Part shown: positions 13,764 to 31,801 of the stretch, in pieces | Position numbering within the stretch: position 1 is the stretch's first letter | Layout of the letters: every line of letters starts with the position of its first letter | Assembly (NCBI GenBank): GCA_963422735.1 | Contig: OY730476.1 | Span: forward strand, 4,864,001-4,928,000 | DNA length: 64,000 nt | Direction: 5' to 3' | DNA from: Candidatus Latescibacterota bacterium | GTDB lineage: Bacteria > Latescibacterota > UBA2968 > UBA8231 | Made by a program: the position numbers and the translations under genes | Notes under the pieces: model-generated | The model's database searches: none | Told to the model about the DNA's origin: nothing | The model's input: the letters and a program-made list of their open reading frames with translations, nothing else

Positions 13764-13890
13764 GCCAACTCCGCCGCCGGGACGGGTGCCATCGGGGCTG
13801 GGTTCGGGGGGGTGCTCTTTGGAGAGAACTTGGATGTTTGCGGGCATGATTACTTATGGCCTTGTCTTGTTATGGCCTTATCTCCGAAAT

Positions 13891-15686: not shown

Positions 15687-16520
15687 TTAAAAGAATGTGG
15701 ACCTGACCCCCGAAGCGATCCGACGAATGGCGGCGTTTTGATGGGGATCGGTCCTTGCTACTGGGCGGTTCCAGTACGGCGGACAGGAAACGCTCCACTG
15801 ATCGCCATTGCGTCCCTGTCGCTAGCGGCCTTTATTGCGCCTAGTATCGACGTAAACTACTGCGGCATGAACCTCGTCTGTGTTATCGGCAAGCCTACCG
15901 TGCTTTTCCAGATCTTGGAGCAACTGGGATTTCACTCTGTGCCCCAACATATCTACTTCGGGTTCTGTCTCTATCTCTTTGACTAGATCCGCAGTCTTTT
16001 GCCATGCTCGTCCTTGGCGGATCATCCCGACTATCTTGCGTTTGCGGTTCAAGGTCTTGAGATACTTGCCTATGGAATCGACCGGGTCTATCATCCAGAC
16101 CGTCTTGACGAGCGGGCTTTCCTCGGCGAGCCAGATCGCCATATTCGCCCCTAGTCTGCAACCGACTATGGTCAAGCGTGAGGTATCGGTATGGCCGCAT
16201 TCCCGCAGCAGGTAATTGAGGCCAACCTGATAATCCCGGCGCAGTTCATCGAGATTTGCAGACGCTATTTCGCCGCCTGTATTCCCGTGTCCCTGCGGTT
16301 CTACCCGGACAACGGACATCCCCAACTGCGCCATGGCCCGGCACAAATCAACCGACCATGTGTAGCTGGCATAGAATTCGGTTAGCAAGGGATGCAGGTA
16401 GAGTACCGGCCGGCTCTGGACGCAGGGGTCGCTTTTGGACTGGTAGTGCGCGTAGTACAACCGACCATCGAGTACGCCCTGCATCTCTGGGCATTTTTCG
16501 CCCAATTCAACCCTCTGCAT
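15687..16520 (-). pseudogene. Alpha/beta hydrolase resembling exosortase-A-associated hydrolase 2; probable premature TAG at 15822
   Basis: GHGNTGG, GCRLGA elbow with Arg in the nucleophile position; in-frame continuation containing PPYWN to a stop at 15687. Confidence 0.6.
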
Positions 16521-17643
16521 CGCAAACCTCCCAGTACACTTCCTTGTATCTGTCACACATTGCGTTGAAGTTCCAACGGGCGACCCCTTTGCGCGCTCGC
16601 TCTCCCATCTGTTCGAGTCGTCCGCGGTCGGCAAGTAGGCGAACGACTGCCGCCGTTCCTCCTTCTATATCGCCCCGCTCGATCAGAATACCAGCCCTTG
16701 TCTCTTCAATGATTTCAATACACCCATTGACGCGGGTGGACACTACGGGGACGCCCGCAGCCATAGCTTCCAAGACTACAAGGGGAAATCCCTCGTGTGC
16801 CGACATCAGCACAAACGCGTCCATCGCCGCCATGATAGCGGGCACATCGCGCCGCCAACCCAACAGGCGGATGCTCTCTTCCAAGCCCCCGCGGTCTATT
16901 TGGCGTTGAATTTCCTGCCGCAACTCCCCGTCGCCGACCACTATTGCCCTTATACCGGGGATCACGCTCCGGATCCGCTTACACACTTCCACAAAATCCC
17001 CGACCCGTTTGCCGGATTTCATACAACTCACAGTACCGATCACGACACCCTCGACTGGCAGGCCAAGCGCGGCTCTGGCTTGCCTACGAGTCGGCAGCTT
17101 GGCGAACCGACGAGCGTCGAATCCCCCGGAAATCACCCTCACTTTCCCATCCGGCGCGAGACCGTGCTCTATGCAGGTCTTTCTCAACCCTTCCGAAACC
17201 ATGACTTGGGCCACCGACCGCTTTGCGGCCAACCGCTCGCAGACCAGATAGACCTTTTCGACCAGACTCATCGCCGCAACGTCGCAACCTATACCGTGGA
17301 CCGTATGGATGCACGGAATGCGAAGCAACCGCGCAGCTGCTCTGCCGATCAACCCGGCCTTCGGCGTATGGGTATGGACGATGTCCGGTTTGAAACTATT
17401 GAGTAGGTTCATTATCCGTACCAACGCCAAGAGATCTTTGAGAGGCGTTATTTTTCTCCGCAGCGCCGCTACCGTGATTACTTCCACCCCCCGTATTCCT
17501 TGGAGATCTTGCAGCAGCAGTCCGCGCTCGTTGGTTATGACGCAGACTTCCCAATTGGACTGCGCCAACCGGCCGGCCAACTCAATGACTATGCGCTGCG
17601 CCCCGCCAAGCTGTAGTTCGGTTATCATCAAAGCTATTTTCAC
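16507..17643 (-). CDS. GT4 (GT-B) glycosyltransferase
   Basis: GGAQ, PDIVHTHTPKAG, HTVHG, EGFPLVVLEAMAAG. Confidence 0.93.
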   Translation of the reverse strand: MKIALMITELQLGGAQRIVIELAGRLAQSNWEVCVITNERGLLLQDLQGIRGVEVITVAALRRKITPLKDLLALVRIMNLLNSFKPDIVHTHTPKAGLIGRAAARLLRIPCIHTVHGIGCDVAAMSLVEKVYLVCERLAAKRSVAQVMVSEGLRKTCIEHGLAPDGKVRVISGGFDARRFAKLPTRRQARAALGLPVEGVVIGTVSCMKSGKRVGDFVEVCKRIRSVIPGIRAIVVGDGELRQEIQRQIDRGGLEESIRLLGWRRDVPAIMAAMDAFVLMSAHEGFPLVVLEAMAAGVPVVSTRVNGCIEIIEETRAGILIERGDIEGGTAAVVRLLADRGRLEQMGERARKGVARWNFNAMCDRYKEVYWEVCDAEG

Positions 17644-17664
17644 GATTTCTCTCCTGTCATCGGC

Positions 17665-18228
17665 CTAACTATGATGACAGGGCAACCTAGAGAGCCGGTC
17701 GCCTAGGAAAAGCATCAACCCAACCAAGATGCCAGCGCATATCCACGTGTAGCTTTGGGCTTGTCCGAAGACGAGCACGGCCAAGATGCCCAGCAAACCT
17801 GTACCGGCGACGGCGACTAACACCAGTTGGACGCAGGTAAGGCCGACGGCCCTCAACCGATGCGCCAGATGGTCGCGACTCCCCTGCATGATCGGTATTC
17901 CGCGACGCCACCTGCACAGCGAAACTAGCAGCACATCTAGCATGGGCACGGCCAAGACGAGACCGGCTGCAGCCCAGTCTTCTATACGGTTAGTCCCCAC
18001 GCCCAACTTGATGCACAGTACGCCCAGCATGAAACCGAGGAAAAGGCTCCCGCCATCCCCCAAGAACATCCGAGCCCGAGGAAAGTTGAAAAGCAGAAAC
18101 GCAAATGCGGCACCAACAAGCGCGGTGCCAGCCAGCGCAACGGCTACGTTGCCCGCATAAAACCCGAGCAAAGCGATAAACGCGGCGGCAGTGGAGGCAA
18201 CCGAGGCGGCTAGACCATTGGCTACATC
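17665..18228 (-). pseudogene. MraY/WecA-family polyprenyl-phosphate HexNAc-1-phosphate transferase, C-terminal half only
   Basis: DVANGLA, FNFPRARMFLGDGGSLFLGF, DHLAHRL; N-terminal half absent. Confidence 0.82.
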
Positions 18229-18816: not shown

Positions 18817-19623
18817 TTACTTCAACTTCCTGATTGCCCGTACTAACTGCGGGCAACTCCCTTCCAGTTTTTCGGACAACTGGATATGGCGCACCCAAGC
18901 CGACGACACCCAATTGTGCAGCCGGTCCCCTTTTCCCCTCAACTTCGCTGTTGCGCCTTGAAAATCGTCGTGGTCGTACAACTCCCGCCGCTTGAGGAAA
19001 TACGGATCCGACCGATTCGTGTTGGTCCCCGCGACCGTGCCGCACGCCCCGGCATAACCGCACTCGACCACTACGCGCCGTACACGTGCCGTCGCTAGCC
19101 CTCGCGGGTACGCGAAATACCGCACCGCTTTGCCGAGGTGATCCTCAATCCTGCGCTTTGAATCGCCTACTTCGCGGTAAATCCCGGCGAGACCGAGTTG
19201 GGTGAGCATGGCGTGGGTTGCGGTGTGCGAACCAATTTCGACTCCCGCTTCGGACAGGGCCGCAATGTCCCTCCATCCCAGCAACTTCCTTCCTTCCAGC
19301 CGGCACCCGACGAGATCGCTGATGACGAAGACGGTCGCTTTGAATCCGAAACGCTCCAACAGTGGCATGACCTCGGTCAACACGCTCGCATAGCCGTCGT
19401 CGAAAGTGATGGCGATTTCCCGATCAACCGAGTGGTTCCCCCATCTGTAAAGCCTATTCACCGACCTATCGAGTGAAGTGGGGGCATAGCCCAAGCTGCT
19501 AATGGCCTCGAGATGCTCTGCGAACCTCTTCGGTGGCACGCTCAACGGACCGTCTCCGTCCTCTATCGCGTGATAGGTCAGGATAGGGAGGGTTCTGCGT
19601 CTTTGCGTTTTTTCTTTAGGCAT
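18817..19623 (-). CDS. Polysaccharide deacetylase (NodB/CE4)
   Basis: PILTYH, ITFDDG, IGSHTATH, FAYPRG. Confidence 0.92.
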   Translation of the reverse strand: MPKEKTQRRRTLPILTYHAIEDGDGPLSVPPKRFAEHLEAISSLGYAPTSLDRSVNRLYRWGNHSVDREIAITFDDGYASVLTEVMPLLERFGFKATVFVISDLVGCRLEGRKLLGWRDIAALSEAGVEIGSHTATHAMLTQLGLAGIYREVGDSKRRIEDHLGKAVRYFAYPRGLATARVRRVVVECGYAGACGTVAGTNTNRSDPYFLKRRELYDHDDFQGATAKLRGKGDRLHNWVSSAWVRHIQLSEKLEGSCPQLVRAIRKLK

Positions 19624-20485
19624 AGCAGTGATCTGGTTGTGTTGCACTTCGGGTTTTTGTACCGCTTGCTCGTCTGACCGCCGGGCTGGACGCGGAAAGC
19701 CAATCCACCGTCATCTGCACGACCTCCTGTACTTTATCATGCGAACGGTAGGAGTGATCGGTGTCTTCGACTATTCTCGTCTCGTACGATATGCCGCCGA
19801 TAAAGCGGCACAGAGCCTCATAGTCGCGGGCGCACCCGCGGCTGGATGGGTCGCCAGAGGGGTAGATGCCGAGCGCGTGGACGGTTGCGCCGAAGCGATC
19901 TTTGGTCAAGAGGTTTTCGATGGGTATGTGACCGAGACTCTTCTCTTCAGGAGCGTCCACATCCCTCGGACTAGTGAATTGGTTCTTGGCCTCGGCGTAC
20001 AAACCCCAAAACTCCACGACAGCGGCTTTCAGGTACTTGGAGGACCGGCGAATGTCCATGGACCGTTTATCGGCCAGTTCGGTGGGACTCCACATCACTA
20101 ATTTTTGCCAGTTCACCGCCGCCGTTGCAGTACAGTACAGCGCCACCCAAGCACCAAAGCATTGGGCCACGCACGAGACTGCATCGATATTCGCTTCGCT
20201 TTCCAAGAAGCGTGCGCTCTCCACGCAATCGCCAACCGGAGTGAATTTGCCGCCGGCTTCGCTGTTGCCCCGTCCCCCGAAATCGAACCGGAGGCAGTGG
20301 AAGCCGGCACGCGCTAGTTGGCGCGCACCGCACGCGTACATACTATGGTCTCCGAACAGATGATCCGGTTCGCCGGGGACGAAGAGTACGCCGTGCCGCA
20401 AGTCGCGCCCGGGACTGGGCCGGTGCCATACGCCGAGGAGTTGGCTGTTTTCTCCTCGATAGACAACTACTTGCTCGTTGGTCAT
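19616..20485 (-). CDS. Alpha/beta hydrolase resembling exosortase-A-associated hydrolase 1 (Cys at the nucleophile elbow)
   Basis: LGVWHRP, LRFDFGGRGNSE, AQCFGA, DHSY. Confidence 0.72.
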   Translation of the reverse strand: MTNEQVVVYRGENSQLLGVWHRPSPGRDLRHGVLFVPGEPDHLFGDHSMYACGARQLARAGFHCLRFDFGGRGNSEAGGKFTPVGDCVESARFLESEANIDAVSCVAQCFGAWVALYCTATAAVNWQKLVMWSPTELADKRSMDIRRSSKYLKAAVVEFWGLYAEAKNQFTSPRDVDAPEEKSLGHIPIENLLTKDRFGATVHALGIYPSGDPSSRGCARDYEALCRFIGGISYETRIVEDTDHSYRSHDKVQEVVQMTVDWLSASSPAVRRASGTKTRSATQPDHCYA

Positions 20486-20557: not shown

Positions 20558-23042
20558 CTACTCGCTCTGCAAGTCTTTAGTGAGGGGTTTCCTCATAAGG
20601 GCCACCGTGTGCAACAATACACCCGCACAGGCCGTGGCCGCTGCGGCCAAACTTTCCAATCCTAGGAACACCCACCCATCGTCTATCCGCTGCGAGAAAT
20701 GGTTTAGCCACTCTTCGATGCCCAAGTACGCCAAGGGTCCTATCAGTAGGCACCCAGCCAGCACCAGCCACAGCAACCGCCGCGCCAACAGGCTAGCCAC
20801 ATGCCGACCCTGTGCGCCCAAGGTCCGCATGAAGGCGATATTATGCCGCTGATGGGACACTGTGATCGCCGTCAGGCCATAGGCTCCCAGCGCAGCGATG
20901 AACACGGCCAAGAAGGCTGACCCGCATACGATCTGTAGCCAGATCAGGTCGTCTCGGTAGTACGCGGCCAAGTGGTCTTCGAGCCACGACAGATACAGCA
21001 CATCGTCGGGGGCTATGGCTTGCCACTCGCGCTCAATGTGCTCAAGCACCTCTTTGCCTGCCTTGGGGTCGAGGCGCACAAAGAGCAACTCGTGCTGATT
21101 CATAGAGGAGTCGAGCAAGAGCACACCCGGCTCTTCAGAGTTGCTTTTCAGCGAATAGAAGTAATAGTCGCTCAGTACGCCTACAACGCGGCCTTGTCCA
21201 TTGGGCATCTGACGGGCTAGGCGTTTCTCAAACTGCACGGTTTGGCCGATGGGTTGGTCCCATCCGGCTCGGGCGACAAAGGTCTCATTGACCAGAATGC
21301 CCGCTTGATCCGGCCCCAAATCCACGCCTTGTACGAGTTGGAGGCCGAGCGTCTCGACAAAATGCGGATCCACGCCTAGGCAACGCGCCTCGATGGTGTG
21401 GTCCTCACTGGGCAACATCGTCTTTTTTATCCAAGGTACTCCGCCCAATTCTTTCTCCAAGAAATGATCCTTACTCGTAGCCACCGACTTGATTCCACTA
21501 TGGGCGAGCAGTCGCTCCTTGAGTAGCTGCCGATGTCTGCTATCGATGTACTGCGGCAACTCCCTTATTCTGAGTACCAGCACTTCGGCGGGCACAAAGC
21601 CCAGATCGAATGCCTGCAAGTGGTGCAGTTGACGAACCATCACCAAGCTCGTGCCCGCCAGCCCAGCATAGGCGGCGAACTGCACCACCACTAAGGCACT
21701 GCCTAGCGCCGACCGGCGGCTGAGCAGACTGTCGCCACGCACCGCCTCGCTGGGGTTGGTCCGCGCTAGAATCAAGCCGGGGTACGCAGCGGCCAACAGG
21801 CTGGTGAGCACTAACAGGACCAGCTCGCCAACGATAAAGTGGATTGGTATAGTTGAGACGCGGGTCTTGACCCAGCACCGCGTTGAACGCCGGCAGCAGG
21901 GCTTCGCCGAGGGCCAAGCCTATCACCAGCGATACGCTACACACCACTACCGTTTCCATCCAGAACTGCACCGGCAGTTGCCAGCGCGTGGCACCGAGGG
22001 CGACGCGCACCCCGACTTCTAGTCCACGTGTACTCGCCTGAGCCGTAGCCAGGTTGACGTAATTGACCACGGCTACGGCCAGCAGGAGCAAGGCGATAGC
22101 CAAGACGATATAGGTTTCCAACGGGTCGTGCGGCGGGGCGATACTTTCGTATCCTTTCCACTGCGTCACGTCGGTGTCCGTGCGCAGGGCCGACAGGGGT
22201 TGCAATTCCACCTTAAAATCCACCCCACGGGCTGCCTCGTCGCTGAAATCGGGTGCGTTTTCAAGCACCAACTGCCGCATCAGTTCTTCGGCTTGCTTCA
22301 AATCGCCATCGTTGGCGTCCTCCCGCAACTGGACGAATAGGACACTGTCTCGATCCCAAAAGTCATCAATCCAGCGCCATAGGAACTCCGAGTTGTGAAA
22401 GGGCAACAGTATGTTCAACTGGATCGACGAGTTCGCCGGCGGCGGGGCGACCACTGCTTGGATGGTGTATTCCTTGTGCTCGGATTTGGGCCATGCCACA
22501 TCGATCTGTACTATCCGACCCACCGCTGGCTCGTCGCCGAAGTAGCGGCGGGCGAAATCGCTGCTGACGACGATGCCGTCCTTTACCCCTAGAGCCGTCC
22601 GCGGATTGCCTACTTCAAGGGGGAAGGTGAACACCTTGAAGAAATTCTCGTCAACCAGTAAAAACGGCTCGTCGTTCCACGTATCGCCCGATCGGACGCG
22701 GATCCGCTGACCTTCCAATGACGCGTCGCGACTGGAAACCAACCGGACCGTTTCTTCAACTTGGGGCACGGCGTTCTGGATAGCCTCGGCCATGGCGACC
22801 GGAGTGTGATCCCCCATTTTCCTACTATCATAGCCCGGGGCTTTGGCGTTGAACACCACTCGGTATAGGTGAGCCCCGTTCTCGTGGAAGCTATCGTAGC
22901 TCCACTCGCGCGATACCAGCGCGTAAGTTAGAATGCAGAAGCCAAACGCCAGCGACAGACTGCCCACTTCAATGACGCTCAGCAGCTTGTGCCGTCGCAG
23001 GATGCGCACGGCGATCTGCAAGTAATTACCAATCATTCTCAT
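20558..23042 (-). pseudogene. Double-domain MacB/FtsX ABC permease, frameshifted near 21840
   Basis: MRMIGNYLQIAVR, EWSYDSFHEN, NYVNLATAQASTRGLEVGVR, second half AAAYPG...LVVVQF. Confidence 0.88.
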
Positions 23043-23188
23043 GGTGCTTGCTCCTGTCGTATATCTACTTTCCTTACTAGCATCGCTGTAATCATACCGA
23101 GGAGACGAAGGGGCTTGGTTGGTTTGAGAGAGCTTAGCCAATACGGCTAGTTAGGTGGACCTATCCTCGGTCCGTTTATGGGACACGG

Positions 23189-23365
23189 CTAGTCGGGATC
23201 GCAGCATTTCCCTGTCGTGTATATGCAGGTGTACGTTCCACTGAACAGCCCTTCCTGTATCCAGCGGCTGGAGTAGTTGGACCGCTGCTCTGGCGTACAC
23301 TCGGCGTGATAACCGAAAACGACCTTCCGGTTGTGCTTCCGGTTTCTCTTCGTCAGCTTTTTCAT
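23189..23365 (-). CDS. 58-aa small peptide, putative RiPP/bacteriocin-like precursor
   Basis: Strong RBS AAGGAGGTG before ATG; MKKLTKRNRKHNRKVVFGY leader-like part and a 4-Cys core; first ORF behind a sigma54 promoter. Confidence 0.72.
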   Translation of the reverse strand: MKKLTKRNRKHNRKVVFGYHAECTPEQRSNYSSRWIQEGLFSGTYTCIYTTGKCCDPD

Positions 23366-23519
23366 AATGCACCTCCTTCTTCGGAGAAGTAGGCCCCTCG
23401 GTCTCCTCAGCATGATGCCCAACAGTTGGTCTAATTTTTCGCCTCCTTTCCGACAAGTTAGATATCTGAAGCATATCTCTTTCGGCCTTATCTTGTCATG
23501 GCCTTTCATCCAGAAGAAA

Positions 23520-23535
23520 TGCAAGATGTGTGCCA
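23520..23535 (-). promoter_or_regulatory. Sigma54 -24/-12 promoter for the peptide-MacB operon
   Basis: Minus strand TGGCACACATCTTGCA (GG-N10-GC). Confidence 0.88.
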
Positions 23536-23602
23536 TATTACTTAACCTATTGAGAGACAATAAGATGAGTCGAATCGACTTCCTCAATCGTCCCATGATC
23601 AC

Positions 23603-23639
23603 TGTCCGCTGGTGATACACAGGTGTCCGTTGACGAACA
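23603..23639. promoter_or_regulatory. Tandem enhancer (bEBP UAS) sites, second copy
   Basis: TGTCCGCTGGTGATACA (identical to 13973) and TGTCCGTTGACGAACA, 21 bp apart. Confidence 0.75.
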
Positions 23640-23747
23640 CTCGCTATGCTCACTTGACGAAAACCAGCACGCCCCAATACCTCGCTTAGACCTAATACGC
23701 AGACGCCCCCGTGCTCCGAGATGCGTTTCAATCGCGATTTCATGGCA

Positions 23748-24029
23748 CTATACCGAGATGGCCCTCGATACGAATTCTGCTAGGGATCGCAAGCTACTCA
23801 GCACTTCGGGGTTGAGGTCGTCGTCGTCAAACTCAAAGCCGAATCGCTCTTCTATTTCCTGCACATACGTCAGAATTTCAGCCGAATCCATCCCGAGGTT
23901 GCCGTCGAGCAGAGCTTCGTCTAAGTCGATCAAATCCGGATCTATATCCATCTCCGTCACCTCTAAGAGCAGCACCCGTAACTCGTATAGGATGCGTTCC
24001 ATTTGACTCTCTTCGAATTGTATCGCCAT
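23748..24029 (-). CDS. Acyl carrier protein
   Basis: Acidic 93 aa, LGMDSAE phosphopantetheine Ser, IEERFGFEF; AGGAGG RBS. Confidence 0.88.
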   Translation of the reverse strand: MAIQFEESQMERILYELRVLLLEVTEMDIDPDLIDLDEALLDGNLGMDSAEILTYVQEIEERFGFEFDDDDLNPEVLSSLRSLAEFVSRAISV

Positions 24030-24075
24030 TGTCTGTTTCCTCCTACTAGTATGGCCGCGCCTCAGCCTAAATGGC

Positions 24076-25821
24076 TTATCCCGCAGCCGCCGCGAAGTGT
24101 CTGCGACCTTGTATCTCCTCTTTCTCGTTCGGAGCAAAAAACTGCCGAAAGTACTTCCCCTTTCTCTTCATTTCTGACGGAGTACCCTCTTCAACTACCC
24201 TTCCGTTCTCAATGCAGAAAACCCAGTCCATTCTTTCTATGACTTCTGCGTTGTGGCTTACTACTATAGTGAACATGTTTTTTCGGGTTTCCAGCAGTTC
24301 TAAAACCGATTCCTCCATCTGCCCATCTACCATCGAAGTGCCCTCGTCTATGACTAGGATATCGGGGTCAGACATCAGCGCTCTCGCTATGCACACCCTC
24401 TGCCGTTGCCCGCCCGACAACCACGCCCCATTATCACCTATTGTCGCGCCTCTAGCCCTCTCGGTGACGAGTTTGGGTATCCTAAGAGAGCACAGTATTC
24501 TATCTGGACAGGCGACCTCCCCTCGTTTCCCGTAAAACACGTTCTCCAATACGGACCTGTTGAAAAGCAACGTTTCCTGCGGCACCATGCCGATATTTAG
24601 CTCCTTCAACCTCGTACTGTTTTTGCCAACCGCCCCATGGACGGCTATCTCTCCGTCCATGGGATCCAAAAGCCCACACACTATATTGACCAAAGTCGTC
24701 TTTCCGCTCCCGTTCTCGCCCACGAGCGCATAGCGTAGGCCTCGTTCGAGGTCGAGATCAATGTCGTGTAGCACCAACTCTCCGTGATAGCCTGCTGAGA
24801 TTTTCTCATTGTTATCCGCGAGCACTCGGGCCGAATTCGTCTTTCTCCAGCTAGCTCTATAGTGCCTTTTCGATGCAGGTTTTCCAGTTCCTCGATCCGC
24901 TTTAACGAGACGCTGCCCTCTACCAAGGTCGTATATACTTCCCCTAATTTTTTAATAGGTTCCACGAGCCAGTTGATGTACTGGCCAAATGCAACAAGGG
25001 ATCCGATGGTCATCTCCCCGCCTAGCACATCATGGGCACCGACGAGTAGGACCAAGATCGGTCCTAAGCCGAGGAGAAACGAGGAGCAGGAATGTCTGGT
25101 AGAGCTAAAAACCGTGCGCTTTACCTCGAGATCTCCGAGATCACCTACTTCTTTTTTGATACCCTTGCTGGTATTGGCCCCTTGGGCAAAGGCTTGCACT
25201 ACCTTCAAGTTTTGGTAAGTCTCCACGAAACAGGCTGTGAGGCGACTTCTGCGCTCGGTGGCCATTTGGGTGTATTCTAAGAGCTTGGCTTGGGTAAATT
25301 TTGCTATTGCATAAAAAAAAGGGAGTCCAACCACGCAGATAAAGAACAGCTTCAGATTCATCCATCCCAGAATGCCCACAATAATCGCCAATCGCAACCC
25401 ATTTCTTACTACATTTAACAACGTTTGGGTCAGGACCTTCTGAACATTGCCGCAGTCTGTCATCGTCCGGTACGAAAGGTCAGCGGCGTTAAAGTCGCGT
25501 AGATTGAAGTACGGTATCTCTATTTTTTTTTGCGAGTTCGCCGCGCAACTTCAGCATGATGTTTCTGCCAATATGGGCACTCAGCAGGCGAGAGAGTACG
25601 GATAGCACCAACCGCACTACCATCAGACCGAACATGCAGAATACGATCCAGACCAGTAGCTCGCCATTGCGCTCTAGAAGTACCTTGTCAATCAGCGCCT
25701 TGGTTAATAGAGGCGAAACGAGTACCGCTGCTATAGACATGCAACTGAGGGTCAAGGCCAAGAGCTGGAGCTGCCACTCCCAGCCGATGTACTTGAAGTA
25801 CGGGGTTAGCACGCTGAGCAA
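24076..25821 (-). pseudogene. ABC exporter permease/ATPase with two frameshifts (A9 run at 25523-25531 and near 24803)
   Basis: Three overlapping ORFs give a TM domain, GENGSGKT, LSGGQRQR and DEGTS. Confidence 0.88.
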
Positions 25822-25908
25822 GTTCGCGTTTTTCTTAAACTTTATGGCATAGCCCCGTGTGGTACTTCTTTCACCAATCGCACACTATTATCGTGCGGGT
25901 TGTAGCAG

Positions 25909-26829
25909 TCAGATCCGTTCTGAGGCGGGGCAGGATGAGATACCAGAGAAAGTCTTATACGTAAAAAGCTCAAATAATATCCCACACAGCGCATAATGGT
26001 CCGTTTCTTGGGTGAATTGATCAAACCGCAAAATCTGCTCAACAGGCGCATAGGCAGGACTGAACTTCCCCGTTTTGTACTCTTTCTCCGCTGGGTGGGG
26101 ATCTCCAGCCGTTACCGTCGTCTCGAAATCGACAAGCGTTACCCCTAGCTCGCTCAGACCAACAGAAAACGGATTTCGTGGACACACCATGACATTGCCG
26201 GGGTTAAGATCGAGAAAGACCTTGCCCTTAGCGTGTAACAAGCGGAGAGCCTCCGTCAGCTTGGCCGCTACCCACAACTTCATATCGAGGGTCAGTTCTT
26301 GCGGATACTGGTCTCTGCTAGGTATCAGATAGAACTTATGCAGGGACTTGCCTTCGACGAATTCGTACACGTAATACTGGATCTTGTAGCGAGTAGGGAC
26401 TATGCCTTTGCAATAGTACTTAACCGCCACCCCCTTTTCGACGGGTTTCGCGAAACTTTCGTGTTCCAAGTCTCGGGCGACATTGAACTCATTGTCGCAA
26501 AAGGCCCTGTCGGCCAGCCGAGTCCGCGAACCTACTCTGTCCCCACTTTCTGTCTCTATATCGCCTAGGAGGCCGATATCTTGGCCCGGCAGGACGTATT
26601 TTACGAATACCTGCTTTCCCGTCAGGATATCTCGGGCCGCGAGGATATTAGAACGGCTTGGAGAAGGCCGCTCGGGAGAGAGCCTGTATTTCCCGATCCG
26701 GCGAATTGGACGCCTCCTTGCTGGCACGACTCTCGGCTCGAGGACGCAGATAGGCATGCTGCGGAAAATCCACTTTGCACATTGGCGGATGTACCTGCTG
26801 ATTTCCATGTTAGCCTCCTCTATGGGCAA
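25909..26829 (-). CDS. Ser/Thr protein kinase domain protein (possibly C-terminally truncated)
   Basis: VFVK, NEF, HAKGKVFLDLNPGNVMV, LVDFE, YAPVEQ, DHYALCGILFELFT. Confidence 0.8.
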   Translation of the reverse strand: MPIEEANMEISRYIRQCAKWIFRSMPICVLEPRVVPARRRPIRRIGKYRLSPERPSPSRSNILAARDILTGKQVFVKYVLPGQDIGLLGDIETESGDRVGSRTRLADRAFCDNEFNVARDLEHESFAKPVEKGVAVKYYCKGIVPTRYKIQYYVYEFVEGKSLHKFYLIPSRDQYPQELTLDMKLWVAAKLTEALRLLHAKGKVFLDLNPGNVMVCPRNPFSVGLSELGVTLVDFETTVTAGDPHPAEKEYKTGKFSPAYAPVEQILRFDQFTQETDHYALCGILFELFTYKTFSGISSCPASERI

Positions 26830-26855: not shown

Positions 26856-27536
26856 TTAGCGCGACGCATCAGCGACCACTCTTTTCGATGCACAGCCAGC
26901 CAAGAAACGGCGACGGCTCTCCTCTAGATCGTCGGCGTCTTGCTCGACCATCAAATCGCCGATGTACCCCGAACTATCGACGCAGAGCATGACACCATAG
27001 ATTTCCCTCGATCCGAGCAATTGTAGTAACGATTCCGGCACGTGCTTCTTTTCTACCGTGACAGGTTTTCTTTTCGGAGCGTACGAGTTGCTTATTTCGA
27101 GCACCTTGATCAGGCTCTCTTCCCCTTCAAATGCGCCGATGTAGAGTGGCTCGTTCCCAATCCCCATATCGCTTTGCCCCGCGTACCAGTATCCAAACAT
27201 ATCGGCATAACAAGCACTGCATTTCGCCTTGTCGTCGAATAGCATAATTATATCGCCGTCTCGCTGGATAAAATCTCCTAGGCGAACTACCTCTATTCCC
27301 TGTCGAATAGGCAACTCGCCCAAAGCTAGTCCCAGTACCTGCTCGCCCGCGATTGCTAAGGCGACTTCCCTCTTTAACCCCTCAATCTCGTGCCGGCGCT
27401 CGTCCCTACCTTGGTTCTTGCCAACGAAGAAAGACATCCCTATGGCCAAGGTCGCTAGCAGCACAACGGCCAACCGTCTGATATGTCTCATAACTCGCTC
27501 CTTGTTGTTAGAATTAACCATTGTTCGCGATCCCAA
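26856..27536 (-). CDS. Membrane-anchored hypothetical protein with CxxC (thioredoxin-like?)
   Basis: N-terminal TM LAVVLLATLAIGMSFFVG, CSAC motif; start uncertain. Confidence 0.55.
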   Translation of the reverse strand: MGSRTMVNSNNKERVMRHIRRLAVVLLATLAIGMSFFVGKNQGRDERRHEIEGLKREVALAIAGEQVLGLALGELPIRQGIEVVRLGDFIQRDGDIIMLFDDKAKCSACYADMFGYWYAGQSDMGIGNEPLYIGAFEGEESLIKVLEISNSYAPKRKPVTVEKKHVPESLLQLLGSREIYGVMLCVDSSGYIGDLMVEQDADDLEESRRRFLAGCASKRVVADASR

Positions 27537-27545
27537 ATCGCACTG

Positions 27546-27810
27546 TTAGGCATCCGAGACTGCGATTCTGTACACCTTTACGACTGGATCGGCTAGGTTG
27601 CCAGAATCGTCGATGTAGGGCTTTTGCCGCATATAGAGCAGACCTTCGTCAGCAATGCCTACCAACCAGCCATAATCGGGATCAATGCGGCCGATTCGTC
27701 TGAATTGGTCGTCATATACCAGATAATAGCCGAATCCCTCACCTTCCTCCTTCATCTCTTCAGTCTCAGGAGCCACGACGAGTACGAATTACCTTCCCGA
27801 CAGGCCCGTC
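27546..27810 (-). pseudogene. C-terminal fragment of a beta-propeller-like hypothetical protein
   Basis: YYLVYDDQFRRIGRI...LVGIADEGLLY...DPVVKVYRI beta-strand pattern; cut off by the enhancer copy. Confidence 0.4.
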
Positions 27811-27815
27811 GCTAC

Positions 27816-27892
27816 TGTCCGCTGATGATACAGAGGTGTCCGCTGGCGTACACCGGAGAGCGGCTTCTGCGTCTGCTGAGGCTGTCCGCCAT
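27816..27892. repeat. Third enhancer copy plus a decayed copy of the response-regulator 5' end
   Basis: TGTCCGCTGATGATACA / TGTCCGCTGGCGTACA followed by ccggagagcggcttctgcgtctgctgaggc, similar to ccggagagcagctcccATGtctgctgaggc at 28836-28865. Confidence 0.8.
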
Positions 27893-28027
27893 TATCGGTC
27901 GCGTACGCCCACAGCCGCGCGCCCTAGGCTCTATGGGATGTGTACGCCAACACTCTGAACAGGAGACAACACCCTGCTAGATTTATTGACTTTAGGGTAC
28001 GGACTGGTTATCAGTCTATCAGACAGA

Positions 28028-28096
28028 ATGAGTCGAATTGCCATCCTCGCCGGCCCAGTGCTACTATCCGCTGGTGATACCCTACCGTCCGCTGGC
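28028..28096. repeat. Fourth, partial copy of the promoter/enhancer cassette
   Basis: atgagtcgaat...tatccgctggtgatac..cgtccgctggc aligns with 23565-23635. Confidence 0.7.
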
Positions 28097-28181
28097 TTTG
28101 GAGGATGGTTAGCGAGAGCTAATGCCCGGATATGATGTTGCTAATGAACCGGAACTACTATATCGTATCAGGATATCGCGG

Positions 28182-28346
28182 GTGAGGCATCCAAAGAAGG
28201 AAATTGAGGAGGTGCTAGTAAGCGCAGAATCGGTAGGATGGACGGTCACGACTACAAAATCTGGTCATCGGTGGGGTGTGATGCGATGTGCGGAATCCAG
28301 TCGTCCAGGATGTCAGTACTCTATCTGGTCCACACTTGGTGCGTAA
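28182..28346 (+). pseudogene. HicA-like small toxin, truncated
   Basis: RHPKKEIEEVL..AESVGW...GHRWG..RC....C..SIWST. Confidence 0.6.
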
Positions 28347-28383
28347 ATGCCCGCACAGGAGTAAGCCGTAAGGAGAACGCGAG

Positions 28384-28728
28384 ATGCAAATCTACCACTT
28401 TACGCCGATTGTCGAGGGGCCCGACATGCAGGATGAGGTCGTGATCGATGCGCTCTTCGAGAATGGCTGTGACGACGGAACGGTCGGCCGATCAGATGAT
28501 GTTCAGTTTATCGTTTTCGACCGCGAAGCGGCGAGTCTTGTCGAGGCGGTGCGGTCGGCGATCGACGACATTGAGCTAAAGGTCGTTCAGACTGCCGGCA
28601 CCGACTTGACTTCCAGTTGCGGCCTTACGGATCGCATCGAAGCAGAGCATTCCGAGATACATCGGTTCATAGCATCTACTAATGCGACCAGCGAAAAAAA
28701 GACGACCGGTGCCTCTGTGGAACACTAG
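28384..28728 (+). CDS. Putative cognate antitoxin / DNA-binding protein, degenerate C-terminus
   Basis: DALFENGCDD...FDREAASLVEAVRSAIDDIE, typical partner of the upstream ORF. Confidence 0.6.
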   Translation: MQIYHFTPIVEGPDMQDEVVIDALFENGCDDGTVGRSDDVQFIVFDREAASLVEAVRSAIDDIELKVVQTAGTDLTSSCGLTDRIEAEHSEIHRFIASTNATSEKKTTGASVEH

Positions 28729-28851
28729 GCCGAGTTCAAGCCTTCGACCGGGCCGATCTATTGTACAAATCTGTCAATCGCAGCGAACGAATCAACTCCT
28801 TAGCCGGCCCAGCACTACGGCCTGTCGGCGATATACCGGAGAGCAGCTCCC

Positions 28852-30227
28852 ATGTCTGCTGAGGCCGCCCGCATCCTCGTCGTGGACGACGACCAAGACA
28901 TCCTCGTCGCCGTACGCTTGCTCCTCAAGCAGCAGGGCTACCAAGTCCGCACCGAGACCGATCCCCAGGCCATTCCGAGTGCCCTCAAGCAGGAGTCGCC
29001 GGCAGTCGTCCTCCTCGACATGAACTTCACTCAAGAGGCAACCAGCGGCCGGGAGGGCTTCTACTGGCTCCAGCAAGTTCGCGAGCTGGACCCGACCGCC
29101 GTCGTCTTGCTGATCACCGCATACGGCGATGTCGAGATGGCCGTGCGCGCCATCAAGGAGGGGGCCGTCGATTTTGTGCTCAAACCCTGGCAAAACGAGA
29201 AGCTGCTGGCCACGCTGTCCGCGGCCATGGAATTGCACCGCTCGCGCCGGGAAGCCCACCGCCTGCGCTCCCGCCAGCAGCGGCTGTCCGCGGACCTCGA
29301 CCAGCCCTTTGGCGACCTCATCGGCGAGGCCCCAGTCCTACAGGAGGTTTTCCAGGCGACGGTCAAGGTGGCCGCCACCGACGCCAGCGTCCTCATCCTC
29401 GGCGAGAACGGCACGGGCAAAGAGCTGGTGGCGCGCGAGATACACCGCCGCTCGGCGCGCACCGGCGAAGTCTTCATCGCCGTCGATATGGGATCCCTGA
29501 GCGAGACCCTGTTTGAGAGCGAACTCTTCGGCCACGTCAAAGGGGCCTTCACCGACGCCCGCAGCGACCGCGCTGGCCGCTTTGAAATTGCCTCCGGGGG
29601 CACCCTGTTCCTCGACGAGATTGGCAACCTGCCCCTAGCCTTGCAAGTCAAGCTGCTCGCGGCCCTGCAAAACCAGCAGGTCGTCCGCGTCGGTGCCAAC
29701 CAACCCGTGCCCGTGGATGTGCGCCTTATATGCGCCACCAACCAACCCATCCACGAAATGGCCACAGCCGGCACCTTCCGCCAAGACCTCCTCTACCGCA
29801 TCAACACCGTGGAAATCCACCTGCCCCCCTGCGCGAGCGCCCCGAGGATATCGCGCTGTTGGCGCGTCACTTCCTCGACTTATACCGGACCAAGTACCGC
29901 AAGGCCCTGACCGGCCTGGCCGCCGAGACCCTCGCCCACTTGCGCGCATACGCTTGGCCGGGCAATGTGCGAGAATTGCAGCACGCAGTGGAGCGCGCCG
30001 TCATCATGAGCGAAGGGAACCGACTGACTGCCGACGATTTTCCCCTGACCGCGGCCCCAGCGTCTGGAGAAGCTATCGGCTTTGACAGCTATAACCTCGA
30101 AGACGTTGAGCGCGAGGTCATCGCTCGGGTGCTGCACAAGCGGCAAGGCAACGTCAGCCAAACCGCACGGGAACTCGGACTGACTCGCACGGCCCCCTAC
30201 CGCCGCATGGAGAAATATGGACTGTGA
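28852..30227 (+). pseudogene. Sigma54-dependent NtrC-family response regulator, frameshifted in the C6 run at 29824-29829
   Basis: Receiver VVDDD/LLDMNF/KP, GENGTGKE, GAFTDA, FLDEIG, WPGNVREL, Fis-type HTH. Confidence 0.92.
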
Positions 30228-30440
30228 GAAGCCTTCCCGGTGGGAAGCAACAGCCCTTGGAGGTAGAAATCGCACGTCCGAACTTTTTAGCGGAACTCGC
30301 CCTCTTTCTATTCGGCAGATCGGGGCATTGAGAGTACATTTGGGCATTCCAGCGGATTTACTGCTGGGCCTTTCAGCGTAATCAACGGCTGCAACTCGAA
30401 AATCCCGCACAGTCCTCTACCGCCGCATGGAGAAATATGG
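30197..30440 (+). repeat. 24-bp direct repeat (30197-30220 and 30417-30440) duplicating the regulator 3' end
   Basis: CTACCGCCGCATGGAGAAATATGG present twice, 220 bp apart. Confidence 0.93.
30256..30381 (+). pseudogene. HigA-type HTH antitoxin C-terminal relic
   Basis: Manual translation LGGRNRTSELFSGTRPLSIRQIGALRVHLGIPADLLL. Confidence 0.7.
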
Positions 30441-31801
30441 CCTTTAAGGGCGTTCTACATCGCCTAATACAAGGCGCTCGCGCCTTCCGCACGCGGGTCG
30501 TGCTGCGCGTTGTTTTTCTTGGCATCACCTTGTGGCTGCTGCTTTACATCATAATAGCAAAAGGAATAAACCATCCGGCTGTTCTCATCGTCGTCGGCCT
30601 CGTCCTGCTCTACCAACTCTACGCCCTCGTGCATTACGTCGAGCGCACCAATCGCGATCTAGTGCGCTTTTTGAACGCCATCCGCTACGCCGATTTCTCG
30701 CAGACCTTTGTCTCCGGTGGCTTTGGCTCCTCTTTCGACGAACTCAAAACCGCGTTCAACGAGGTCCTTGACGCCTTTCGCCAAGCGCGGGCCGAAAAGG
30801 AAGAACAAGCGCGCTACCTGCAAACCGTGGTGCAGCACATTGGCGTCGGCTTGATCGCGTTCGACAACGCTGGCGAGGTGTCGCTGATCAACAACGCGGC
30901 TAAGCGCCTTTTTAGGGTGCCCCGCCTCGGCCACATCGCCGACCTCGACCGCGTCAATCCCATCCTAGCCACCACCCTACGAAGCCTCGGTCCCCGGGAC
31001 CGCGATCTAGTGAGTTTGGAAGAGGTCCGACTCGCCCTGCACGCATCGGTGTTCCGTCTAGGCGACCGCAAGCACACCCTAGTAGCACTCTACGACATTG
31101 GCCCCGATCTCGACGAAAAGGAAATGGAGGCTTGGCAAAACCTGATCCGCGTACTCACCCACGAGATCATGAATTCCATCACCCCCATCGCTTCGCTGGC
31201 TGCCACCGCGGATGGAATGCTAAAAGACGACGCCCTCGATGCCGAAACCACCGAAGACGTCCGCATCGCGGTGAGCACCATCCAGCGCCGCAGCGAGGGC
31301 CTGCTGCACTTTGTCGAGGCCTACCGCGACCTCACCCGCGTACCAGCGCCCTCCTTTGGGATTGTCTCGGTGGCCGGTCTGTTCGCCCGAGTGGAACAGC
31401 TACTGCGGCCCCAGTTCGCCGAGTCCGCGGTCGAGTTGTACATCCAAGTCGATCCACCCAGCCTCGAACTGACCGCCGACCCCGAGCAAGTCGAGCAGAT
31501 TCTCATCAATCTATTGAGTAATGCCCGCGAAGCCACCGCCGGCTGCGCCGGAGCCCGCGTTGATTTGACCGCTCATCTAGAGCACGACAAGGTCGTCGTC
31601 GAGGTCGCGGACAATGGGTCCGGCATCGTCGAAGAAGCACTCGGCAAGGTGTTCATTCCCTTTTTCACGACCAAGCGGGACGGCTCCGGCATTGGGCTGA
31701 GCCTGTGCCGCCAGATCATGCGGCTCCACCGAGGGTCCATCTCCGCTCGCTCGGAGCCGGGGGTGCGGACGGTATTTGCCTTGCGGTTTAGAAAGGATTA
31801 G
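30437..31801 (+). CDS. Sensor histidine kinase (NtrY-like, PAS domain)
   Basis: Two TMs, LTHEIMNSITPI H-box, INLLSNA, DNGSGI, FFTTK, GSGIGL. Confidence 0.95.
   Translation: MAFKGVLHRLIQGARAFRTRVVLRVVFLGITLWLLLYIIIAKGINHPAVLIVVGLVLLYQLYALVHYVERTNRDLVRFLNAIRYADFSQTFVSGGFGSSFDELKTAFNEVLDAFRQARAEKEEQARYLQTVVQHIGVGLIAFDNAGEVSLINNAAKRLFRVPRLGHIADLDRVNPILATTLRSLGPRDRDLVSLEEVRLALHASVFRLGDRKHTLVALYDIGPDLDEKEMEAWQNLIRVLTHEIMNSITPIASLAATADGMLKDDALDAETTEDVRIAVSTIQRRSEGLLHFVEAYRDLTRVPAPSFGIVSVAGLFARVEQLLRPQFAESAVELYIQVDPPSLELTADPEQVEQILINLLSNAREATAGCAGARVDLTAHLEHDKVVVEVADNGSGIVEEALGKVFIPFFTTKRDGSGIGLSLCRQIMRLHRGSISARSEPGVRTVFALRFRKD

What the first reader, a model, noticed from the sequence alone, without database searches (positions are those of the whole stretch)
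23189..23365. Hidden 58-aa Cys-containing peptide gene with its own sigma54 promoter: candidate RiPP precursor
Seen: MKKLTKRNRKHNRKVVFGY-HAECTPEQRSNYSSRWIQEGLFSGTYTCIYTTGKCCDPD with a near-ideal RBS. It is the first gene after a GG-N10-GC promoter and lies directly upstream of a MacB permease. The ORF track masks it inside a longer ORF. From memory, the basic MKKLxK...V..Y leader resembles CLI_3235-type bacteriocin precursors, whose loci also contain ACP-like genes; this needs checking. Inference: a secreted, disulfide-bonded or modified peptide.
Basis: partly seen in the sequence, partly recalled or inferred. Interest (0 to 1): 0.78.

Follow-up and report, generated by a model that had tools for sequence, protein, structure and literature searches.

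The report
Precursor peptide gene in decayed cluster
A real 58-residue gene, with a constant basic front part and a fast-changing four-cysteine back part, looks like the precursor of an exported processed peptide, but most of its helper genes are broken in this strain.

Summary
Window 23189-23365 (-) encodes the 58-aa peptide, with an AAGGAGGT ribosome-binding site and the window's only exact TGGCAC-N5-TTGC sigma-54 promoter. A duplicated MacB/FtsX permease lies directly downstream.

It is a real gene. Fourteen homologues share an invariant 19-20-aa basic leader and a hypervariable core with four conserved Cys. The family was found in one Latescibacterota genus only (4 of 168 phylum genomes), in 1-4 copies per genome, each copy with its own promoter.

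Intact relatives carry a conserved set:
- an NtrC-type activator
- a QhpE-like S8 protease fused to a TIGR04066-like domain
- a beta-rich lipoprotein
- a membrane-anchored CxxC protein
- a kinase-like protein
- an ABC exporter
- an ACP-like protein
- the precursor(s) and the permease

However, the peptide fails the TIGR04065 model and the loci hold no radical-SAM enzyme.

In this strain the system is decayed. The protease and most of the lipoprotein gene are deleted, the kinase has a 158-nt deletion, and the exporter, permease and activator are frameshifted. Read sets from other studies carry several of these lesions.

Best reading: a precursor of an exported, Cys-bridged, possibly further modified peptide, probably a relic here. 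No chemistry or expression was shown.

The parts
23189..23365 (-). Precursor-like peptide gene, 58 aa: invariant basic leader (about residues 1-19/20) and a hypervariable core with conserved C23, C47, C54 and C55
23371..23378 (-). Ribosome-binding site AAGGAGGT, 5 nt before the ATG
   Evidence: invariant in 8 of 8 aligned copies (AAGGAG core)
23366..23509 (-). About 145-nt 5' leader of the transcript (start inferred from the promoter). It holds an invariant SD-like GAAAGGAGGC at 23441-23450. No conserved fold was found.
23521..23535 (-). Sigma-54 promoter TGGCAC-N5-TTGC
   Evidence: rpoN is present in the genome
23602..23638 (-). Two tandem TGT-N10/11-ACA sites, read as upstream activator sites. 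The same motif precedes the other peptide copies and the maturation operon in L003.
   Evidence: site function inferred
23748..24029 (-). ACP-like protein, 93 aa, with the LGMDS phosphopantetheine-site motif
24076..25845 (-). ABC exporter (membrane domain plus ATPase, no peptidase domain), broken into three frames by a 2-nt and a 1-nt deletion near 25523-25531 and 24800
25851..26829 (-). Protein-kinase-like gene, disrupted by a 158-nt deletion at about 25951
26856..27491 (-). Membrane-anchored protein, 211 aa, with an invariant CxAC motif; probably thioredoxin-like; intact
   Evidence: fold not demonstrated
27549..27785 (-). Remnant (last 79 codons) of the beta-rich lipoprotein gene. The rest of that gene, the S8/TIGR04066-like gene and their promoter are missing, about 2.9 kb relative to L003.
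27814..27853 (-). Left-over pair of activator-type sites that precedes the maturation operon in L003. Here it abuts the lipoprotein gene remnant.
20558..23042 (-). Duplicated MacB/FtsX-type permease (828 aa in relatives), split by a 2-nt deletion at about 21840-21849
28852..30227 (+). NtrC-type response regulator and sigma-54 activator, divergently placed, frameshifted after about residue 326 (near 29830)
   Evidence: this lesion was not checked against reads
30437..31801 (+). Histidine kinase, the likely partner of the activator

Best explanation
The gene encodes a leader-bearing precursor of an exported, cysteine-bridged peptide (bacteriocin-like or RiPP-like).

In intact relatives the inferred course is as follows:
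1. An NtrC-type two-component system activates sigma-54 promoters in front of each precursor copy and in front of the maturation operon.
2. The invariant basic 19-20-residue leader directs the peptide to cytoplasmic partners: a QhpE-like S8 protease fused to a TIGR04066-like P-loop domain, an ACP-like protein and a kinase-like protein. These remove the leader and may add a modification.
3. An ABC half-transporter moves the core across the inner membrane.
4. A membrane-anchored CxxC protein and a lipoprotein act on it in the periplasm. With four conserved Cys, the most likely outcome is two disulfides.
5. The duplicated MacB/FtsX permease expels the product or protects the producer.

Shown: gene reality, the leader/core pattern, copy number, synteny, promoter conservation, domain content and the lesions. 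Inferred: every biochemical step.

In the window's own strain the activator, protease, lipoprotein, kinase, exporter and permease genes are deleted or frameshifted. Here the intact peptide gene is most likely a silent or orphaned relic.
For: Real gene and family: 14 homologues with E from 5e-26 to 2.4e-7. Residues 1-9, K14, F17, G18, Y19, C23 and T46 are invariant; C47, C54 and C55 are kept in at least 90%. A further member, P0050, keeps the same Cys pattern.

Selection pattern, window against L003: leader dN/dS about 0.16, core about 0.72, three neighbouring genes 0.17-0.24.

Copy number: 1-4 copies per genome, each with its own promoter.

Synteny in L003 and L004: activator, S8 + DUF1611/TIGR04066-like, lipoprotein, CxxC protein, kinase-like, ABC exporter, precursor(s), permease. 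The ACP-like gene between exporter and precursor was checked in the window and L003 only.

Domain details:
- The S8 part scores 90.8 bits to QhpE and the C-terminal part 63.2 bits to TIGR04066.
- The lipoprotein has an LGC lipobox and is predicted all-beta.
- The CxxC protein has an N-terminal helix and an invariant CxAC. Language-model neighbours at 0.95-0.96 include a cluster auto-named 'Redoxin family'.
- The permease has two MacB_PCD/FtsX units and scores 65.6 bits to the darobactin exporter permease model.

The same accessory set is listed for a CLI_3235 cluster (PMC10731318, passages). The genome has rpoN.

Decay in this strain. rpoB and rpoC are single open frames. Run X6, from another study, has contigs identical to the window across 21840, 25523 and 25951. 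The related strain in X8 carries the missing GG, C, TA and 158 nt.
Against: - No enzyme of an established RiPP class was found in the 20-kb loci: Pfam and NCBIfam gave no radical-SAM, LanB/C/M, YcaO or similar hit. The nearest TIGR04068-like gene is about 800 kb away and below cut-off.
- The kinase's likeness to LanL/LanKC is weak, 48.6 bits against a cut-off of 650.
- The folds of the lipoprotein and the CxxC protein are not established. AlphaFold pLDDT was 37-38, and hhalign of the CxxC family against redoxins gave probability 2.6%.
- There is no evidence of expression or of a product.
- All members come from one genus, with synonymous divergence of only 0.16-0.41 in neighbouring genes. Conservation is therefore measured over a short distance.
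- In this strain, and differently in the X8 strain, the cluster is broken, so it is dispensable at least there.
Confidence: 0.6

Rival explanations
1. An unmodified secreted peptide. The leader is only an export and processing tag, and the mature product is a plain two-disulfide peptide (class-II-bacteriocin-like, or a signalling peptide sensed by the adjacent histidine kinase). The kinase-like, ACP-like and TIGR04066-like proteins then have no chemical role on the core.
For: Four conserved Cys. A periplasm-facing CxxC protein is in the operon. No recognised RiPP enzyme is present. An adjacent two-component system could sense the product.
Against: A carrier-protein-like gene with the LGMDS attachment-site motif in the window and L003, a P-loop TIGR04066-like domain and a kinase-like protein with intact catalytic-type motifs are kept in the operon. 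This accessory set accompanies modified peptides in CLI_3235-type loci (PMC10731318).
Confidence: 0.25
2. A small subunit of a periplasmic protein complex rather than a free peptide. By analogy with quinohemoprotein amine dehydrogenase, a small Cys-rich subunit is trimmed by the S8 protease QhpE, exported by an ABC transporter and joins a beta-propeller subunit. (The analogy is recalled; only the family names come from calls.)
For: The best NCBIfam hit of the S8 part is QhpE, at 90.8 bits, and 141.1 bits in a paralogue. An ABC exporter without a peptidase domain is present. A beta-rich lipoprotein is present whose nearest language-model neighbours are 6-bladed propellers, at score 0.87, which is a lead only.
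Against: A hypervariable core (dN/dS about 0.72) and 1-4 divergent copies per genome are not expected for an enzyme subunit. No radical-SAM, cytochrome or flavoprotein partner was found.
Confidence: 0.06
3. Not a functional gene in any genome: a chance ORF, or a conserved non-coding RNA leader whose sequence happens to be open.
For: No Pfam or NCBIfam family. The upstream 145 nt are also well conserved, at 76-89% identity.
Against: The frame and stop are kept in all copies despite core indels that are multiples of three. The leader shows synonymous changes at near-constant protein sequence. No Rfam hit. The fold z-score is -0.18 and the covariation term -0.1 kcal/mol. UTR identity is about what synonymous sites show.
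Confidence: 0.03

Closest known systems
CLI_3235-type (TIGR04065) Cys-rich peptide maturation loci, e.g. the SacP23 cluster of Paenibacillus polymyxa (PMC10731318, passages read)
   Same: A short leader (19 aa there) with a Cys-rich core, a TIGR04066-type protein, an ACP-related protein, a subtilisin-like protease and an ABC transporter in one locus.
   Different: - The peptide fails the TIGR04065 model.
- There is no radical-SAM maturase in the locus.
- The TIGR04066-like part is fused to the protease and scores 63-65 bits against a cut-off of 200.
- The ACP-like protein scores 15.3 bits to TIGR04069 against a cut-off of 70.
- Extra here: a kinase-like protein, a CxxC protein, a lipoprotein, a MacB-type permease and sigma-54 control.
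Quinohemoprotein amine dehydrogenase maturation (QhpC small subunit, QhpE protease, ABC exporter); the biology is recalled, the model NF049966 comes
   Same: A cytoplasmic S8 protease most similar to QhpE, an ABC exporter without a peptidase domain, a small Cys-containing leader peptide, and a beta-rich periplasmic partner.
   Different: The score is below the QhpE cut-off (90.8 against 165). There is no radical-SAM, cytochrome or flavoprotein. The core is hypervariable and multi-copy.
Darobactin operon (precursor followed by a MacB-type exporter permease, DarB); the operon layout is recalled, the model NF038008 comes
   Same: The precursor gene sits directly in front of a duplicated FtsX/MacB-type permease.
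   Different: The score is 65.6 bits against a cut-off of 700. No adjacent adaptor, ATPase or radical-SAM gene is present. The peptide is much longer.
Class III/IV lanthipeptide synthetases (LanKC, LanL)
   Same: The best NCBIfam hits of the kinase-like protein are their kinase domains. The core is rich in Ser/Thr and contains Cys.
   Different: The scores are 48.6 and 36.3 bits against cut-offs of 650 and 575. No lyase or LanC-type cyclase domain was detected in the loci.
Hypervariable multi-copy precursor families such as the prochlorosins (recalled, not tested)
   Same: A constant leader, divergent cores and several precursor genes per genome.
   Different: No LanM-type enzyme. Each copy here carries its own sigma-54 promoter cassette.

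Membership tests
CLI_3235 family bacteriocin precursor (TIGR04065) | Scores at or above the model's cut-off (26 bits) | tested here: not met
   No hit for the window peptide at E<=10 and none in G000. The best hit in any relative's copy is 11.1 bits, E 4.1. The same search gives hits in 9 of 14 control genomes.
CLI_3235-type maturation system | Radical-SAM/SPASM maturase (TIGR04068) in the locus | tested here: not met
   One sub-cut-off hit per genome (78-87 bits against 500), far from the locus: G000 4085485 against the locus at about 4887000.
CLI_3235-type maturation system | TIGR04066-family protein in the locus | tested here: inconclusive
   Relatives have a homologous domain at 63-65 bits (cut-off 200) fused to an S8 protease. 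This gene is deleted in the window. Paralogues elsewhere in G000 score 118-119 bits.
CLI_3235-type maturation system | ACP-related protein (TIGR04069) in the locus | tested here: inconclusive
   The gene at window 23748-24029 passes PF00550 (33.5 bits against 20.8) but scores only 15.3 bits to TIGR04069 (cut-off 70).
RiPP precursor (generic) | Conserved leader, variable core, several alleles or copies | tested here: met
RiPP precursor (generic) | A post-translational modification of the core by a co-encoded enzyme | not testable with these tools
   Only candidate enzymes were found (kinase-like, TIGR04066-like, ACP-like, CxxC). There are no mass data.
Lanthipeptide (class III/IV/V) | Kinase plus lyase plus cyclase functions encoded in the locus | tested here: not met
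   Only a weak kinase-domain match was found. Pfam and NCBIfam gave no lyase, HopA1 or LanC hit on any ORF of L003 or L004.
Sigma-54-dependent promoter | -24 GG / -12 GC consensus, upstream activator sites, an adjacent enhancer-binding protein, and rpoN in the genome | tested here: met
   Exact TGGCAC-N5-TTGC. GG-N10-GC kept in 7 of 8 copies. TGT-N10/11-ACA pairs are present. An NtrC-type gene is adjacent but frameshifted here. rpoN scores 425 bits. Transcription itself was not shown.
ADOP family duplicated permease (TIGR03434) / MacB-type | Two MacB_PCD + FtsX units, and a score above the model's cut-off | tested here: inconclusive
   The architecture is met. TIGR03434 scores 223.7 bits in L003 against a cut-off of 622.3. 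The window copy is split by a frameshift.

The most novel reading that the evidence does not exclude
A new, radical-SAM-independent branch of the TIGR04066/ACP-type 'peptide maturation systems'. In this reading, an S8 leader protease fused to a P-loop TIGR04066-like domain works with a dedicated carrier protein and a kinase-like enzyme. Together they put a so far unknown modification (for example acylation or phosphorylation) on a hypervariable four-Cys peptide. The peptide is then exported and oxidatively folded. Each precursor sits in its own sigma-54 promoter cassette, which allows core diversification by cassette duplication. Two other S8-TIGR04066 + ACP loci in the same genome would then be sister systems.
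Probability: 0.3. Interest if true: 0.75.

Novelty: new variant of a known kind. Interest (0 to 1): 0.5.

Why it matters
If the intact clusters are active, they define an unannotated precursor family. The peptide, the lipoprotein and the CxxC protein have no Pfam or NCBIfam model. They would also give the poorly understood TIGR04066/ACP accessory pair a setting without the radical-SAM enzyme, which would make their role testable.

The sigma-54 cassette in front of every precursor copy is an unusual way to drive such genes. My literature searches for this combination found nothing.

This strain and a related one carry different inactivating lesions. That suggests the system is being lost in natural populations, which bears on how costly secreted-peptide systems are maintained.

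For annotation, it is a clear case of a true small gene hidden in a longer spurious ORF.

Tried and rejected
- Rfam on 22900-23900 gave nothing near gathering scores.
- Structured RNA leader: RNAalifold found 1 compensatory pair of 39 and a covariation term of -0.1. The single-sequence z-score was -0.18. I first thought the 5' leader unusually conserved, but its 76-89% identity matches the synonymous divergence of neighbouring genes (pS 0.16-0.41), so I dropped the idea.
- JGI metagenome scan: 95 pattern matches, none confirmed.
- AlphaFold of the CxxC protein (17-row alignment) and the lipoprotein (9 rows) gave pLDDT 38.4 and 37.5. I ran no fold search, because such models give meaningless matches.
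- hhalign of the CxxC family against five redoxin domains of the same genome: probability 2.6%, E 0.018, although the CxxC motifs fall in register.
- PDB sequence searches for the lipoprotein and the CxxC protein gave only E>0.1.
- Complex prediction of kinase-like protein with peptide: no verdict, score 0.00.
- Sequencing runs: no RNA holder is listed. X12 is only guessed to be RNA; one 172-nt contig of it covers 23295-23457, which shows nothing about transcription.
- Assembly error as the cause of the frameshifts: rejected for three sites and the 158-nt deletion. It remains open for the activator frameshift and for 24800 in X6, where depth is 2.6.
- Literature: no paper holds the leader sequence. 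The searches for DUF1611 and for sigma-54 with precursor peptides found nothing relevant. Paper supplements were not consulted.
- My recollection that DUF1611 proteins include an N-acetyltransferase could not be checked and carries no weight.
- The script machine was lost. The planned tblastn of L006 and L007 was replaced by ORF lists and Pfam.

Full report
**1. The observation**

It lies in frame inside a 184-aa ORF at 23189-23743. AAGGAGGT ends five bases before the ATG. TGGCACACATCTTGC at 23521-23535 (-) is the only exact TGGCAC-N5-TTGC in the window. Chance would give 0.15, and 15 of 100 shuffles had one, so the match alone is weak evidence. The next gene downstream starts at 23042 and has MacB_PCD and FtsX domains.

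**2. It is a gene, and the short start is the true one**

A word-indexed search of 5.8 billion proteins returned 14 homologues of 50-65 aa, with E from 5e-26 to 2.4e-7. In the 15-row alignment, residues 1-9, K14, F17, G18, Y19, C23 and T46 are invariant. C47, C54 and C55 are kept in at least 90%. The stretch between them is highly variable in sequence and length.

An exhaustive profile search of 1.84 billion representatives found only three clusters. One was a new member, P0050, with the same Cys pattern. The frame upstream of the ATG is not conserved: the open frame is 59 aa in G145, and the upstream region differs by 1-, 4- and 8-nt indels.

Between the window and L003 the values are:

| Region | dN | dS | dN/dS |
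|---|---|---|---|
| Leader codons | 0.044 | 0.28 | about 0.16 |
| Core codons | 0.185 | 0.258 | about 0.72 |
| Three neighbouring genes | – | – | 0.17-0.24 |

**3. Distribution**

Among 168 genomes of the phylum, 4 have the gene, counting the window's own. All four are in one genus (3 of 30 other species). They carry 2, 4 and 2 copies against one here. The named records that hold the same loci are titled Latescibacterota MAGs, and one is titled Gemmatimonadetes. The JGI metagenome scan confirmed no match.

**4. Regulation**

Seven of eight aligned copies keep GG-N10-GC; the eighth has GA. Two TGT-N10/11-ACA sites lie 70-120 nt upstream of the promoter in the window. They recur before the other copies. 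In L003 they also recur, with a TGGCAT-N5-TTGC promoter, before the first gene of the neighbouring operon.

An NtrC-type response regulator is divergently placed, and a histidine kinase follows it in the window. rpoN is present, at 425 bits. I read this as one regulon: one activator, several sigma-54 cassettes. Transcription itself has not been shown.

**5. The neighbourhood in intact relatives**

L003 and L004 share the following order:
- Activator, on the opposite strand.
- A 647-aa protein with an S8 protease half and a second half matching DUF1611 and TIGR04066. The S8 half scores 90.8 bits to QhpE, and catalytic-type D, H and S motifs are visible. The second half scores 63.2 bits to TIGR04066. 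There is no signal peptide.
- A 355-aa lipoprotein with an LGC lipobox. It is predicted all-beta, and its nearest language-model neighbours are 6-bladed propellers at 0.87, which is a lead only.
- A 211-aa protein with an N-terminal helix and an invariant CxAC. Its nearest neighbours are unnamed or 'redoxin family' clusters at 0.95-0.96.
- A 374-389-aa kinase-like protein. Pkinase scores 38.7 bits. The best NCBIfam hits are the kinase domains of LanL and LanKC, at 48.6 and 36.3 bits, far below cut-off.
- A 590-aa ABC exporter without a peptidase domain.
- A 93-94-aa ACP-like protein with an LGMDS motif. PF00550 scores 33.5-34.7 bits, over its cut-off. This gene was checked in the window and L003 only.
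- The precursor.
- An 828-aa duplicated MacB/FtsX permease. TIGR03434 scores 223.7 bits and the DarB model 65.6 bits, both below cut-off.
- In L003 and L004, further precursor copies after the permease.

A precursor directly precedes such a permease in 5 of 5 loci with readable downstream DNA: the window, L003, L004, L006 and L007.

**6.

The peptide is not a member of TIGR04065. There is no hit at E<=10 and none in G000. One relative's copy scores 11.1 bits against a cut-off of 26, in a search that also gives hits in 9 of 14 control genomes. No radical-SAM maturase is near.

The accessory set, however, is the one a published CLI_3235 cluster lists: a precursor with a 19-aa leader and a Cys-rich core, an ABC transporter, a TIGR04066 protein, an ACP-related protein and a subtilisin-like protease, plus the radical-SAM enzyme (PMC10731318, passages read).

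The same genome has two more S8-TIGR04066 fusions (118-119 bits), each with a PP-binding gene right beside it. One of them lies next to an ABC exporter, an HlyD adaptor and two CPBP proteases. The kinship is therefore at the level of the maturation system, not the peptide family.

**7. This strain's copy is decayed**

Relative to L003 the window shows these lesions:
- About 2.9 kb are missing. The activator sites at 27814-27853 abut the last 79 codons of the lipoprotein gene. The operon promoter, the protease fusion and four fifths of the lipoprotein gene are gone.
- The kinase gene lacks 158 nt at about 25951.
- The exporter has a 2-nt and a 1-nt deletion.
- The permease has a 2-nt deletion.
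- The activator is frameshifted after residue about 326.

The peptide, the ACP-like gene, the CxxC gene and the two downstream hydrolase genes are intact. rpoB and rpoC are single open frames of 1271 and 1373 aa.

The laid contigs show the following:
- X2 is identical over the whole stretch, but it may be the source.
- X6, from another study, has gap-free identical contigs across 21840, 25523 and 25951.
- X8, a 95-99% related strain, has GG, C and TA inserted at 21840, 24800 and 25523, and carries the 158 nt. Its contigs run on into other sequence at 27784-27787.
- X8 also lacks 977 nt (23806-24782). That removes most of the ACP-like gene and the exporter's ATPase end.

Two strains therefore carry different lesions. 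The activator frameshift and the 2.9-kb junction have no independent read support.

**8. What was not found**

- Rfam gave no family.
- No conserved RNA fold was found. The 5' leader's 76-89% identity is what synonymous sites of neighbouring genes show.
- The structure models failed, with pLDDT 37-38.
- The CxxC family aligns to redoxins with its motif in register, but at probability 2.6%.
- The complex prediction gave no verdict.
- No RNA run is listed.

**9. Reading**

The pattern is that of a precursor of an exported, processed peptide: an invariant leader, a fast-evolving Cys-framed core, several copies, and a dedicated protease, exporter and permease under one regulator.

Whether the core is modified beyond leader removal and disulfides is open. 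The kinase-like, ACP-like and TIGR04066-like genes make modification plausible, but no known RiPP chemistry can be assigned.

My estimates are:

| Reading | Confidence |
|---|---|
| Precursor of an exported, processed peptide (main reading) | 0.6 |
| The same, but with no modification beyond disulfides (rival) | 0.25 |
| Small-subunit reading, as in quinohemoprotein amine dehydrogenase | 0.06 |
| Not a functional gene | 0.03 |

In this window the gene is most likely a relic of a recently inactivated system.

**10. Novelty and score**

No model, paper or family I could search describes this peptide, the lipoprotein or the CxxC protein. The system is a new variant of a known kind. It is of moderate interest (0.5): a testable rSAM-less relative of the TIGR04066/ACP maturation systems with sigma-54 cassettes. 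Against it stand the lack of any chemical or expression evidence and the degraded state of this copy.

Noticed in passing
G000:C1:2846376-2847715 (L028 9377-11514) and G000:C1:1218973-1220318 (L029): There are two further S8 protease/TIGR04066-like fusions (118-119 bits), each with a PP-binding (ACP-like) gene immediately beside it. The first lies next to a TPR protein, two CPBP intramembrane proteases, an ABC exporter and an HlyD adaptor. These are probably sister peptide-maturation loci; their substrates were not identified.
   Followed up: partly
window 23441-23450 (-): An SD-like GAAAGGAGGC lies about 75 nt upstream of the real start, with no start codon behind it. Its GGAGGC is identical in all 8 aligned copies. 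It recalls the SD-like mRNA-stabilising elements described in Bacillus thuringiensis cry transcripts (recalled, not tested).
   Followed up: no
window 27854-28840: About 1 kb here is absent from L003, between the activator gene and the operon's activator sites. It holds two ORFs without any Pfam family (28122-28346 and 28384-28728, +) and a degenerate extra copy of the activator-site/promoter cassette near 28020-28090.
   Followed up: partly
window 23806-24782, in run X8: A 95-99% related strain has a 977-nt deletion that removes most of the ACP-like gene and the 3' part of the ABC exporter. It keeps intact the sites that are broken in the window's strain, so this is an independent, different decay of the same cluster.
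   Followed up: partly
G000:C1:1728717-1730453 (-): One 1054-aa open frame matches short parts of both the rpoB model (positions 604-659 and 1011-1148) and the rpoC model (331-475), apart from the true rpoBC genes. It may be a fused two-barrel RNA-polymerase-like protein.
   Followed up: no
window 12864-13847 (-): In this 327-aa ORF, of a kind not family-checked here, the last 45 or so residues (Ala/Ser/Thr/Pro-rich) look out of frame. This may be another frameshift in the window.
   Followed up: no
window 18817-20485 (-); L003 13495-15136; L004 11816-13727: An alpha/beta hydrolase and a polysaccharide deacetylase follow the permease in all three loci. Glycosyltransferase genes come after them in the window (16507-18171). 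They probably belong to a separate envelope-polysaccharide cluster.
   Followed up: no
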